DNA from: a virus
IMG/VR virus record: IMGVR_UViG_3300018420_000012
Coordinates: 1-64,000 of that record
Reading direction: 5' to 3' (one strand)
DNA: 64,000 nucleotides
In this document: one piece after another, positions 1 to 4,843 of the stretch
Layout of the letters: each line of letters opens with the position of its first letter
How positions within the stretch are numbered: the first letter of the stretch is position 1
Program-made: the position numbers and the translations under genes
Notes under the pieces: generated by a model
What the model was told of the DNA's origin: nothing
Seen by the model: only the letters and a program-made list of their open reading frames with translations
Databases searched by the model: none

Positions 1-105
1 ACCACTGGCAGGCACAATGGCTGGGTCTAGGGTGCAACCTACTGGGTTGTACTCGCAACCGAAAACTGCATCGTATAGTGCGTCGATGGTGTTGAAATCG
101 TACAT
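1..105 (-). CDS. Hypothetical protein, 5' part only (MYDFNTIDALYDAVFGCEYNPVGCTLDPAIVPASG...), runs off the left edge
   Basis: Manual translation from ATG at 105, with AAAGG RBS upstream and a sigma70-like promoter at 172-199; not in the ORF track. Confidence 0.6.
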   Translation of the reverse strand, partial: MYDFNTIDALYDAVFGCEYNPVGCTLDPAIVPASG

Positions 106-171
106 GGTAAAAACCTTTGAAAAGAGAAAAAAAGAAAACTTGTTTGAAGCGTTGTTTGCTTCGATGCCTTA

Positions 172-199
172 ATTATACGGCAAAAGTCAAGTCTGACAA
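172..199 (-). promoter_or_regulatory. Leftward sigma70-type promoter (TTGTCA-16 nt-TATAAT)
   Basis: Minus strand reads TTGTCA GACTTGACTTTTGCCG TATAAT, about 70 nt upstream of the leftward CDS. Confidence 0.55.
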
Positions 200-524
200 T
201 AACTTATTTTTTCATTTTGTTCAAAAACACCGTAAATTACGGGCTAAAAATCTTTTTTCGACTTTTTTGGAAGTCCCGATGGACACTTAGAATTTGCACA
301 CTTGACCGCTCAACTGTCAGTATGGCAGCCTATTGGTGCTGGGATTGGGTTGTATTATTTTGAGAATGGGGGTCTTTTATCTTGCCTGCCTAATCTACCC
401 GATTTGCCTAAAATACCGTGGGTGCTTCCCTCGCAATACGAACACAAAATTATTATGTCTTACCCAAACCATATAAATAAGTCCATATAAAAGAATCGTT
501 GATCCTTCTCGCCCCTTCATGAAC

Positions 525-674
525 CTATTCCAAATCGTCACGGCCCTTCTCGCGACATAAAACACAAGTACGTGTGTTACCTTCAATTTTAAATACCTTG
601 CAGCCACAGACGCACACAGACTGTCTAATGACCGTATATGGTTCGACCTTCTTCTTTTTCTTTCTCTTGCTCAT
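525..674 (-). CDS. Small basic Zn-ribbon-like protein, 49 aa (MSKRKKKKKVEPYTVIRQSVCVCGCKVFKIEGNTRTCVLCREKGRDDLE)
   Basis: Manual translation, below the ORF-track cutoff; GAGGG RBS; CxCxC...CxxC cysteines. Confidence 0.6.
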   Translation of the reverse strand: MSKRKKKKKVEPYTVIRQSVCVCGCKVFKIEGNTRTCVLCREKGRDDLE

Positions 675-699
675 AATTTTGCCCTCTGTTACACACATG

Positions 700-1035
700 A
701 ATACTGTCAGTCTACACCAAGACCATCTATACCTGTAAAGAGCTGGAAGAGGCCCTGTCGGTATTGGTTACTTTGAGAAGCGGTAAAGTCTTGTTTGCTT
801 GATTCTTTTACTTTTACTAAATTCCAACCGTTAGGTTGTTCACATTTCTGTGCTTTACAGGACTGAGTTGACATGGTGGGTCATTGCTCAGATTCTTTTT
901 GCTTGCTTTACCTCGGAGTGCTTGTTCACTCGCCAGTGACTTCTCTATTCAACAAGTGGTTAGAACGCTAACTACACCAATAACGTTTTTTTACAAATTT
1001 ATGTCGAATCCAGACGCTAGATAACCATCGTCTAC
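700..1035 (-). ncRNA. Candidate structured non-coding RNA or long structured 5' leader
   Basis: No ORF of 60 aa or more; at least 8 complementary helices including 9-bp, 7-bp and 6-bp long-range pairings; G-U pairs and a GAAA tetraloop favour the minus strand. Confidence 0.5.
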
Positions 1036-1038
1036 AGT

Positions 1039-1067
1039 ATATTAGTCTAAAATTACAAGTTTTGCAA
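1039..1067 (-). promoter_or_regulatory. Possible leftward promoter (TTGCAA-17 nt-TAATAT) for the structured RNA
   Basis: Spacing and position directly upstream of the first hairpin; weak -10 match. Confidence 0.35.
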
Positions 1068-1075
1068 GTTCTTTT

Positions 1076-1104
1076 TTGGCATTTTACCGTTTCAAGTGTA
1101 TAAT
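1076..1104 (+). promoter_or_regulatory. Rightward promoter TTGGCA-17 nt-TATAAT containing the GTGTATAAT late motif
   Basis: -35 at 1076-1081, -10 at 1099-1104; heads the whole structural region. Confidence 0.7.
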
Positions 1105-1143
1105 AGTATAGAAACCAAATTAAACGCTCATGAAAGGTATGTA

Positions 1144-1329
1144 ATGACTCGCAATAAAGATAAGTGCGTTAAAAAATGTGACGCTGAATTAAAATGCAAA
1201 TCGACTTCGGCCCTTGAGAAGTCTATCGCTAACGATCTAACAAAACCTGATGGAAACTTAGAGGAACTACTGAATGAAAAAGATAGTAACCAAGTCGCTG
1301 GCACTGACACCAGCGAAACAGATAGCTGA
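1144..1329 (+). CDS. Small hypothetical protein (61 aa)
   Basis: ATG 1144 with AAAGGT RBS; the track's GTG start at 1096 lies inside the promoter; overlaps the next gene by 56 nt. Confidence 0.45.
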   Translation: MTRNKDKCVKKCDAELKCKSTSALEKSIANDLTKPDGNLEELLNEKDSNQVAGTDTSETDS

Positions 1330-4333: not shown

Positions 4334-4593
4334 AGCTCTACTGTTTAAGATTAGATATTTCAATGTGCATAGCCAGACTAAAAGAGTTTGAGCTACGACA
4401 GTTTAATAGTGCATTTCCAATACTATTTATAGAAGCAAAAGACCCAGATGAGGCTTGCTATAAATGTTTATGCATGTTCACTGAAAATATCCTTAAACAA
4501 AATGAATCAAAACAAACAGCAACTTTAATCAGGGACATTTTAAAAGATGTCCGAGTAACAAAGGTATATTGCAAAGATGAGAAGAAATTATGA
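4330..4593 (+). CDS. Hypothetical protein
   Basis: ATGA overlap with the gmd stop, in operon. Confidence 0.65.
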   Translation: MKLYCLRLDISMCIARLKEFELRQFNSAFPILFIEAKDPDEACYKCLCMFTENILKQNESKQTATLIRDILKDVRVTKVYCKDEKKL

Positions 4594-4843
4594 TGATCCT
4601 GTCTACAAAGAATGGCGGCTTAGAGTTTATAAGCGTGATAAATTCAAGTGCCAAATGCCAAAATGTAAATGTAAAACAAGGCTTCAGGCTCATCATATAA
4701 GAAAGTGGTCTTCAGCCTCTATGTTGAGATACGATGTAGATAATGGCATAACACTATGTAGAAAATGCCATGAATCAATAAACGGGCAAGAGCACTTATA
4801 TGAATCCTTATTCATGGAGATAATAAGAAAAAATGCCAATTAA
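4577..4843 (+). CDS. HNH endonuclease
   Basis: RDKFKCQ..C...LQAHHI...YDVDNGITLCRKCH motif. Confidence 0.9.
   Translation: MRRNYDDPVYKEWRLRVYKRDKFKCQMPKCKCKTRLQAHHIRKWSSASMLRYDVDNGITLCRKCHESINGQEHLYESLFMEIIRKNAN

What the first reader, a model, noticed from the sequence alone, without database searches (positions are those of the whole stretch)
700..1035. Candidate novel ~340-nt pseudoknotted RNA transcribed divergently from the late operon
Seen (forward coordinates): hairpin 1011-1034; 964-970/981-987 (contains G-U on minus); 921-926/951-956; hairpin 926-939; 940-945/775-780; 906-912/782-788 (adjacent to the former on the 3' side); 863-867/887-891 with inner 869-872/880-883; perfect 9-bp 853-861/732-740; CACA-GAAA-UGUG GNRA hairpin 841-852; hairpin 825-838. 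Several long-range helices cross one another, implying pseudoknots or alternative conformers, since GUAAAG and CUUUAC are each duplicated. No ORF of 60 aa or more covers the region, and a possible promoter lies at 1039-1067. Inference: a structured ncRNA or riboregulatory leader of the downstream Zn-ribbon gene. I could not match it to tmRNA, RNase P or group I cores by eye.
Basis: partly seen in the sequence, partly recalled or inferred. Interest (0 to 1): 0.75.

Follow-up and report, generated by a model that had tools for sequence, protein, structure and literature searches.

The report
New pseudoknotted RNA of marine phages
The flagged gap holds a real, intricately knotted non-coding RNA of about 330 bases, made from its own promoter at the head of an early transcript in a group of uncultured marine phages; it matches no catalogued RNA family and its job is unknown.

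Summary
Taken alone they are no more than chance: inverted-repeat counts match shuffles and the MFE z-score is +0.24. Comparison with relatives changes the verdict. I found 89 distinct copies of this stretch (D1) in IMG/VR and marine metagenome contigs, 79 of them full length. On that alignment, 10 helices (58 pairs) are 97.8% paired. Forty pairs show compensatory double changes; no shuffle reaches this and slid controls collapse.

Three are not. I add an H-type pseudoknot and two loop-to-strand pairings.

G-U outnumbers A-C 318 to 17, so the RNA is read from the minus strand. A conserved sigma70-type promoter ends 5-7 nt before the first hairpin. Rfam 15, ARAGORN, cultured phages and 185,579 prokaryote genomes give no match.

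The Zn-ribbon ORF is lineage-specific cargo, in a slot between D1 and a second, more widespread conserved element (D2, window 368-495). D1 is therefore not that gene's dedicated leader.

Function is unknown. My best guess is a stand-alone early RNA that binds a macromolecule; a cis-acting transcript-head role is nearly as likely. Earlier scan notes (e1-5938177, e1-5660727) may describe the same or a similar family.

The parts
1039..1067 (-). Promoter of the RNA: -35 TTGCAA (1067..1062), 17-nt spacer, -10 TAATAT (1044..1039)
   Evidence: In 66 distinct upstream regions of homologues a -10 hexamer (TATAAT in 47) ends 5-7 nt before the first base of P1, with a -35-like hexamer 16-18 nt upstream. 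Hexamers read directly.
705..1033 (-). D1: the structured RNA domain, about 330 nt, RNA sense = minus strand
   Evidence: nhmmer finds 89 distinct copies, 79 full length. 97.8% of 4447 cells are paired and 40 of 58 pairs show double changes. G-U 318 against A-C 17.
1012..1033 (-). P1, the 5'-terminal hairpin (1033-1029 with 1016-1012) with a conserved 12-nt loop
   Evidence: All 5 pairs covary, 140 double-change cells.
766..770 (-). PK1 3' strand UAACC, pairing with the P1 loop GGUUA (1026-1022)
   Evidence: 4 of 5 pairs have double changes; 99.5% paired.
958..987 (-). H-type pseudoknot: S1 987-984 with 967-964; S2 978-976 and 974-972 with 963-958 (one bulged G)
   Evidence: S1 occurs as AACG/CGUU, GUGG/CCAC, GUGA/UCAC, AUUG/CAAU and AUG/CAU. 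S2 is 100% paired with 4 covarying pairs.
775..945 (-). Central domain closed by P3 (945-939/781-775) stacked on P5 (912-906/788-782), with hairpin P4 (931-927/920-916)
   Evidence: P3 has 4, P5 has 5 and P4 has 2 pairs with double changes; 98-100% paired.
863..891 (-). P6 hairpin (891-887/867-863, inner 883-880/872-869) with conserved loop CCACCAU
   Evidence: The outer stem has 4 covarying pairs. The loop pairs with the 3' tail.
853..861 (-). PK2 5' strand CCUGUAAAG, pairing with 740-732
   Evidence: 9 bp, 99.3% paired, 5 pairs with double changes.
841..852 (-). P7, a variable hairpin (here CACA-GAAA-UGUG)
   Evidence: A hairpin of 3 bp or more with unrelated sequence sits here in 65 of 79 copies.
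721..740 (-). 3' region: PK2 3' strand CUUUACAGG (740-732) and tail AUGGUC (726-721), which pairs with the P6 loop (PK3)
   Evidence: Tail and loop changes compensate: AUAGUC with GACUA, AUGGAC with UCCAU, AUGGCC with GCCAU, ACGAUC with GGUCG. Some copies mismatch.
525..698 (-). 57-aa Zn-ribbon ORF: lineage-specific cargo in the slot between D1 and D2
   Evidence: Present only in the window, L177, L098/L191 and L187. Other lineages carry other sense-strand ORFs or nothing. No Pfam or PHROG match.
368..495 (-). D2: second conserved element, about 125 nt, with blocks UUGGGUAAGACA, GAAGCACC, a U-run and CAAGAUAAAAGACCCCC
   Evidence: nhmmer finds 104 distinct copies, including relatives without D1. 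No conserved fold was found. Its nature is unresolved.
225..242 (-). Terminator-like hairpin plus T-run: a possible end of the transcription unit
   Evidence: Consensus scan only.
172..199 (-). Next leftward promoter, TTGTCA-16-TATAAT
   Evidence: Consensus scan, 11 of 12. Relatives have TTGACA-17-TATAAT after D2.
1076..1104 (+). Divergent promoter TTGGCA-17-TATAAT (GTGTATAAT) of the orf61 / 226-aa / sigma operon
   Evidence: The sigma-like ORF matches Sigma70_r2.

Best explanation
SHOWN: window 1033..705 (minus strand) encodes D1, the founding part of a previously uncatalogued family of structured non-coding RNAs in uncultured marine siphophages. The fold comprises:
- a 5'-terminal hairpin whose loop pairs with a strand about 250 nt away (PK1);
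- an H-type pseudoknot;
- a three-way junction (P3/P4/P5);
- a hairpin (P6) whose loop pairs with the 3' tail (PK3);
- a 9-bp long-range pseudoknot (PK2).

A conserved sigma70-type promoter places the transcription start at the first hairpin, so host RNA polymerase should make the RNA early, divergently from the phage sigma-factor operon. D1 is always followed on the same strand by the conserved element D2. In 36 of 64 loci nothing but a short spacer lies between them; in 23 the gap holds unrelated cargo genes.

INFERRED (about 45%): the folded RNA is itself the product. It would be a stand-alone early RNA, possibly ending at the hairpin and U-run inside D2, whose compact knotted shape binds a host or phage macromolecule as a decoy, scaffold or catalyst. 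It would not regulate one particular gene. The core claim (a real structured RNA of a new family) I hold at about 0.93.
For: - Covariation: 58 pairs, 97.8% paired against 82.7% in shuffles and 31-47% when partners are slid. There are 40 pairs and 694 cells with double changes against 184 (shuffled) and 27-90 (slid). 0 of 500 shuffles reach the observed values (independent scan).
- Strand: G-U 318 against A-C 17.
- Promoter: fixed 5-7 nt before P1 in 66 distinct upstream regions.
- Not coding: the ORF55 start codon is kept in 49 of 79 copies, and its frame hits a stop within 3 codons in 32 of 79.
- No dedicated downstream gene: gap of 100 nt or less in 36 of 64 loci; the cargo is diverse.
- No known family: Rfam gathering and E-value modes on the window and on a relative; ARAGORN.
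- Conserved position: a divergent orf61 homologue sits a median 124 nt away in 51 of 75 loci.
- Four tertiary pairings in about 330 nt are typical of RNAs whose three-dimensional shape is their function (inference).
Against:
- There is no terminator or defined 3' end at the D1 boundary. Cargo ORFs start 2-30 nt after it, which fits a leader as well as a stand-alone RNA.
- Single-sequence folding energy is no better than shuffles.
- D1 is not more conserved than the neighbouring sigma gene (0.67 against 0.69 nt identity).
- No binding partner or activity is identified.
- Close relatives that keep D2 do without D1.
Confidence: 0.45

Rival explanations
1. Cis-acting transcript-head module. D1 acts on the transcript it heads. 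It might modify the elongating RNA polymerase so that it reads through the D2 hairpin/U-run and the terminator at 242-225 (as HK022 put or Bacillus EAR RNAs do). Or it might shield the 5' end and set translation of whatever gene sits in the slot behind it.
For: - D1 always lies at the extreme 5' end, with the promoter -10 ending 5-7 nt before P1.
- No 3'-end signal follows it, and sense-strand cargo ORFs begin 2-30 nt after it in 23 or more loci.
- A U-run follows a paired segment in D2 in most copies, and a terminator-like site follows at 242-225.
- The cargo is rich in sugar-nucleotide genes, the kind of operon EAR serves (the EAR point is my own knowledge).
Against: - put (about 70 nt) and EAR (about 120 nt) are far simpler, and there is no Rfam match to either.
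- More than half of the loci have no gene between D1 and D2.
- Downstream early genes have their own strong promoter.
- Relatives lacking D1 keep the same layout.
Confidence: 0.33
2. Ligand-sensing riboswitch-like leader. PK2 and PK3 would sequester the AGG...AUG segment of the 3' tail to control the downstream cargo gene.
For: The 3' tail contains AGGUAUAAAUGG, which is engaged in PK2/PK3. Cargo genes often belong to sugar-nucleotide metabolism.
Against: - There is no constant downstream gene and often none at all.
- The AUG is not invariant, and the following codons are conserved as nucleotides rather than as codons.
- No alternative-pairing pattern is conserved.
- At about 330 nt it is far larger than known aptamers.
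Confidence: 0.07
3. Replication-related RNA. The transcript would be a structured pre-primer (as ColE1 RNA II, or the R-loop origins of T4) that primes DNA synthesis in D2, whose GGGGCGAT-like repeats would be initiator-binding iterons.
For: - D2 begins with 1-4 GGGGCGAT-like repeats and has G-runs followed by C-runs.
- The position between divergent operons is typical of phage origins (inference).
- D2 shows conservation of primary sequence without a fold.
Against: No replication genes are seen nearby; the leftward genes in this contig are sugar-modifying enzymes. D2 exists without D1 in many relatives. Cargo genes of up to 1.5 kb separate D1 from D2.
Confidence: 0.08
4. Not an RNA. The conservation would reflect a small protein (ORF 707-874), or a DNA-level or single-stranded-DNA element.
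For: A 55-aa ORF overlaps the 3' half. tblastn gives weak hits in two relatives.
Against: - The frame is broken in most homologues.
- Indels are not multiples of three.
- Compensatory changes and a 318:17 excess of G-U over A-C cannot be explained by coding or by duplex DNA.
Confidence: 0.03

Closest known systems
ROOL and GOLLD RNAs (large ornate RNAs of phages and prophages; PMC12286853)
   Same: Phage-borne, hundreds of nucleotides long, many covarying helices and tertiary contacts, no protein-coding role, function unknown.
   Different: No match to their Rfam models. D1 is smaller (about 330 nt against about 580-800 nt). It is found only in uncultured marine (and one freshwater) siphophage contigs. 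It is always at a transcription start next to a sigma-factor operon. There is no evidence of multimer-forming contacts.
HK022 put RNAs and the Bacillus EAR RNA (cis-acting processive antiterminator RNAs; from my own knowledge)
   Same: A folded RNA at or near the start of an early or polysaccharide transcript. It acts without a dedicated downstream gene. Terminator-like sites lie downstream.
   Different: Those RNAs are 70-120 nt and much simpler. There is no Rfam similarity. Antitermination was not tested here.
Riboswitch aptamers and protein-binding mRNA leaders (for example the T4 gene 32 pseudoknot)
   Same: A 5'-terminal folded domain with loop-to-strand pseudoknots, directly ahead of ORFs in some lineages.
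   Different: No constant downstream gene and often none. Much larger. No conserved alternative pairing.
phi29 pRNA
   Same: A phage-encoded, early-promoter-driven structured RNA with loop-loop tertiary pairing.
   Different: These phages carry a classical large terminase and portal. There is no sequence or structural likeness.
Candidate structured RNAs mined from IMG/VR (PMC10690425)
   Same: Same data source and the same covariation-based approach. Unnamed pieces of this RNA could be among their 10,006 candidates.
   Different: This could not be checked because the supplements are not held. The paper's text describes no such RNA.

Membership tests
Any Rfam 15 family (4227 models, including GOLLD, ROOL, HEARO, IMES, manA, wcaG, EAR, 6S, RNase P, group I/II introns) | A covariance-model match at the gathering score, or at least a consistent sub-threshold match | tested here: not met
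   No gathering-score hits in the whole window. In E-value mode only two chance hits appear in 100-1300, none inside D1's core. There are no hits on relative L104's D1+D2 and only chance hits on L064's D2.
tmRNA / tRNA | A tRNA-like acceptor/T-arm domain with a CCA end and a tag reading frame | tested here: not met
   ARAGORN finds nothing in the window. With relaxed thresholds on six family members it gives only inconsistent calls.
Group I intron | The P3-P7 pseudoknot core with a G-binding site, inserted in a gene with flanking exons | tested here: not met
   No Rfam Intron_gpI match. The strand order of the helices differs. The promoter abuts P1, so there is no 5' exon.
Riboswitch / gene-specific cis-regulatory leader | An aptamer followed by an expression platform and a functionally coherent downstream gene | tested here: not met
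   The gap to D2 is 100 nt or less, with no ORF, in 36 of 64 loci. Elsewhere the cargo is diverse: HNH, UDP-glucose dehydrogenase-like, GNAT, KdsB-like, HAD, Zn-ribbon.
Structured non-coding RNA (generic) | Base pairs maintained by compensatory substitutions on one strand, and no conserved reading frame | tested here: met
   (40 of 58 pairs with double changes; controls fail). (G-U 318 against A-C 17; frames broken).
Structured non-coding RNA (generic) | The region is transcribed | not testable with these tools
   Only a conserved, position-fixed promoter speaks for it.
Processive antiterminator RNA (put / EAR type) | It makes RNA polymerase terminator-resistant in cis | not testable with these tools
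   Only the position at the transcript start and the downstream terminator-like sites are seen.

The most novel reading that the evidence does not exclude
D1 is a new class of large functional RNA, either a ribozyme or a shape-specific binder of RNA polymerase, ribosome or a defence protein, that marine phages deploy in the first minutes of infection. D1 and D2 would form a modular RNA cassette into which homing endonucleases and auxiliary metabolic genes insert.
Probability: 0.2. Interest if true: 0.9.

Novelty: new variant of a known kind. Interest (0 to 1): 0.74.

Why it matters
Large RNAs with several pseudoknots held in place by covariation are rare, and nearly all that have been understood turned out to be ribozymes, riboswitches or the cores of ribonucleoproteins. 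This one has about 80 distinct natural variants and a well-defined start. It is compact enough (about 330 nt) for chemical probing or cryo-EM. It sits at the early/late switch of an abundant, uncultured marine phage group, which could make an early takeover step of such phages testable in vitro. The D1-slot-D2 arrangement also marks a hotspot where these phages pick up homing endonucleases and sugar-metabolism genes.

Tried and rejected
1. Single-sequence statistics. Inverted-repeat counts and MFE z-scores are at chance, so they neither support nor refute the RNA.
2. Rfam, ARAGORN, cultured-phage BLAST and a D1 pattern scan of prokaryote genomes all found nothing.
3. Coding readings. ORF55 (707-874), the plus-strand ORFs p32/p46 and a mini-ORF at the tail AUG are rejected. 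Their frames are broken, or conservation follows nucleotides rather than codons. A plus-strand mini-ORF in D2 is rejected because of a stop in some lineages.
4. The tail TATAAAT as a T4-type late promoter. Rejected as the main reading, because AUGGUC covaries with the P6 loop.
5. D2 as a folded RNA. No covarying helices and no consistent MFE fold.
6. D2 as a physical genome end (cos). Contig ends lie at variable distances from it.
7. D1 evolving more slowly than its neighbours. My first impression from BLAST was wrong; its nucleotide identity equals that of the sigma gene.
8. A D2 pattern scan of genomes. 119 of 120 hits were chance. One real hit is a phage contig binned with a Ca. Planktophila MAG.
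10. Supplements of PMC10690425 are not held.
11. Look-ups of earlier scan findings by sequence and by place found no overlap.

Full report
**Setting.** The window is the first 64 kb of a 91.9-kb phage contig. From about 1100 onward all genes run rightward. They are a small conserved ORF (orf61, 1144-1329), a 226-aa ORF, a sigma-like protein (Sigma70_r2), terminase, portal, protease and virion genes. The best large-terminase match among cultured phages is 24% identical, and DNA search finds no cultured relative. The flagged stretch lies just left of a strong rightward promoter, TTGGCA-17-TATAAT.

**Checking the observation.** All ten complementarities are present as stated. In this one sequence they mean nothing. 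The number of 5- to 9-nt inverted repeats equals that of dinucleotide shuffles and of other windows of the genome. The MFE is no better than shuffles on either strand, with z = +0.24 and +0.65. Rfam gives nothing at gathering or at permissive thresholds, and ARAGORN finds nothing.

**Relatives.** A search with the sigma-like protein returned 80 IMG/VR loci. BLAST of window 1-1270 against them showed nucleotide conservation of 706-1000 in eleven of them. A conserved 20-mer pattern then found 38 viral loci and 89 metagenome loci, but none in 185,579 prokaryote genomes. Profile searches gave 89 distinct copies of the element, which I call D1. Of these, 79 are full length, and one (L177) is identical to the window.

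**Structure.** RNAalifold on 11 and then 24 sequences already showed 21-22 pairs with compensatory double changes. A strict scan of the 80-row alignment found eight helices. Inspection by eye added an H-type pseudoknot, whose first stem occurs as AACG/CGUU, GUGG/CCAC, GUGA/UCAC, AUUG/CAAU and AUG/CAU. Counting a 10-helix, 58-pair structure with three crossing bracket types gave the results below.

| Measure | Observed | Shuffled | Partners slid 1-3 columns |
|---|---|---|---|
| Cells paired | 97.8% | 82.7% | 31-47% |
| Cells with double changes | 694 | 184 | 27-90 |
| Pairs with double changes | 40 of 58 | 30.5 | 8-12 |

No shuffle out of 500 reaches the observed values. A further contact joins the P6 loop (ACCAU or GACCA) to the tail AUGGUC. 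It is supported by four independent compensations and contradicted by mismatches in some copies.

In window coordinates the helices are:
- P1: 1033-1029 with 1016-1012
- PK1: 1026-1022 with 770-766
- S1: 987-984 with 967-964
- S2: 978-972 with 963-958
- P3: 945-939 with 781-775
- P4: 931-927 with 920-916
- P5: 912-906 with 788-782
- P6: 891-887 with 867-863
- PK2: 861-853 with 740-732
- P7: 852-841
- PK3: 877-873 with 726-722

The duplicated GUAAAG/CUUUAC that suggested alternative conformers is peculiar to this lineage. In relatives P5 and PK2 have unrelated sequences, so the crossing helices are true pseudoknots.

**Strand, start and coding.** Paired cells hold 318 G-U but only 17 A-C, so the functional strand is the minus strand. 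In 66 distinct upstream regions a -10 hexamer (TATAAT in 47) ends 5-7 nt before P1, with a -35-like hexamer 16-18 nt upstream. In the window this is TTGCAA-17-TAATAT at 1067..1039. The 55-aa ORF at 707-874 is not conserved: in 32 of 79 copies its frame stops within three codons. D1's nucleotide identity between phages (0.67) is about that of the sigma gene (0.69). It is therefore well conserved for non-coding DNA, but not more conserved than its neighbours.

**What lies downstream.** A second conserved element, D2 (about 125 nt, window 495..368), follows D1 on the same strand in all 64 loci where it could be checked. The gap is 100 nt or less in 36 loci and more than 300 nt in 23. The long gaps hold sense-strand ORFs that start 2-30 nt after D1. 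These include HNH endonucleases, UDP-glucose-dehydrogenase-like enzymes, GNAT acetyltransferases, a KdsB-like enzyme, a HAD phosphatase, unknowns, and the small Zn-ribbon protein of the window. The Zn-ribbon gene is therefore one of many cargoes in a slot, not the gene that D1 serves.

D2 is more widespread than D1. In relatives without D1 it starts about 45 nt from the rightward promoter. D2 has strongly conserved sequence blocks, 1-4 GGGGCGAT-like repeats, and a U-run preceded by a paired segment. I found no covarying fold and no sign that it is a genome end. Its nature is unresolved. In the window a terminator-like hairpin (242-225) and a new promoter (199-172) follow it.

**Interpretation.** That D1 is a real, strand-specific, multiply pseudoknotted RNA of a family absent from Rfam 15 I hold at about 0.93. 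How it works is inference. Its complexity (four long-range contacts in about 330 nt), its own strong promoter, and the lack of any constant downstream gene favour an RNA that is itself the product. It could be a decoy, scaffold or catalyst acting early in infection (about 0.45).

Nearly as likely (about 0.33) is a cis-acting module at the head of the transcript, like HK022 put or Bacillus EAR. These RNAs are cited from my own knowledge. Three observations favour this reading. D1 always sits at the very 5' end. It has no 3'-end signal of its own. Terminator-like sites follow it. Riboswitch, replication-primer and non-RNA readings are less likely, for the reasons given under the rival explanations.

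**Novelty.** I found no description of this RNA. The closest kind is the set of orphan large phage RNAs, ROOL and GOLLD (PMC12286853), with which it shares no detectable homology. The IMG/VR survey of candidate structured RNAs (PMC10690425) may include unnamed pieces of it, but this could not be checked. Earlier notes of this scan (e1-5938177, e1-5660727) describe pseudoknotted RNAs of about 310-355 nt at the early/late switch of marine phages. These may be the same or a sister family. Sequence look-ups found no overlap, so this remains unverified.

Noticed in passing
window 368-495 (minus strand); alignment A4: D2 is a conserved element of about 125 nt, with blocks UUGGGUAAKACA, GAACCACC, a U-run and GAAGAUAAAACCCCC. 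It occurs in 104 distinct copies, including many relatives that lack D1. It shows strong primary-sequence conservation but no covarying fold. It could be a protein-binding DNA site, a terminator/attenuator, or an RNA with single-stranded functional sites.
   Followed up: partly
relatives, just upstream of or inside the start of D2 (for example L028:1804-1972, L001:386-558); window about 505-520: GGGGCGAT-like motifs recur 1-4 times in direct repeat (four tandem GGGGCTGATA units in L028). This is iteron-like and suggests a binding site for a terminase small subunit, initiator or regulator.
   Followed up: partly
slot between D1 and D2 in 23 loci (for example L116, L182, L195, L137, L208, L112, L190, L142): An insertion hotspot for sense-strand cargo: five HNH homing endonucleases, six UDP-glucose-dehydrogenase-like genes, three GNAT acetyltransferases, and KdsB-like, HAD, desaturase-like and Zn-ribbon ORFs.
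   Followed up: partly
relatives downstream of D2 (for example L010, L012, L018, L093, L136): Repeated inverted 10-mers ACGACTTACGAC / GACGTAAGTC flank the next leftward promoter. They look like operators of an early repressor.
   Followed up: no
L265 (contig JBJTKU010000149.1, binned as a Candidatus Planktophila MAG): The only D2 copy in the prokaryote genome collection lies on a 17.7-kb contig with orf61, 256-aa and sigma homologues. It is therefore a phage contig binned with a freshwater acI actinobacterium. This is a weak hint at the host range of the wider phage group.
   Followed up: partly
loci with D2 near a contig end; window contig start: Many metagenome contigs, including the window's own, break 100-700 nt downstream of D2. 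This suggests a hypervariable or repeated region there.
   Followed up: no
window 1076-1104 and 1947-2474: The rightward promoter combines a -35 element with GTGTATAAT, and the 175-aa ORF carries Sigma-70 region 2 (26 bits).
   Followed up: partly
window 4577-4843 (+): A free-standing HNH endonuclease gene inside the morphogenesis operon (Pfam HNH, E = 1.3e-7).
   Followed up: no
window 117-225 (+): A sub-threshold Rfam hit to eukaryotic SCARNA7 (22.8 bits against a gathering score of 65). It is an A-rich chance match and is not meaningful.
   Followed up: yes
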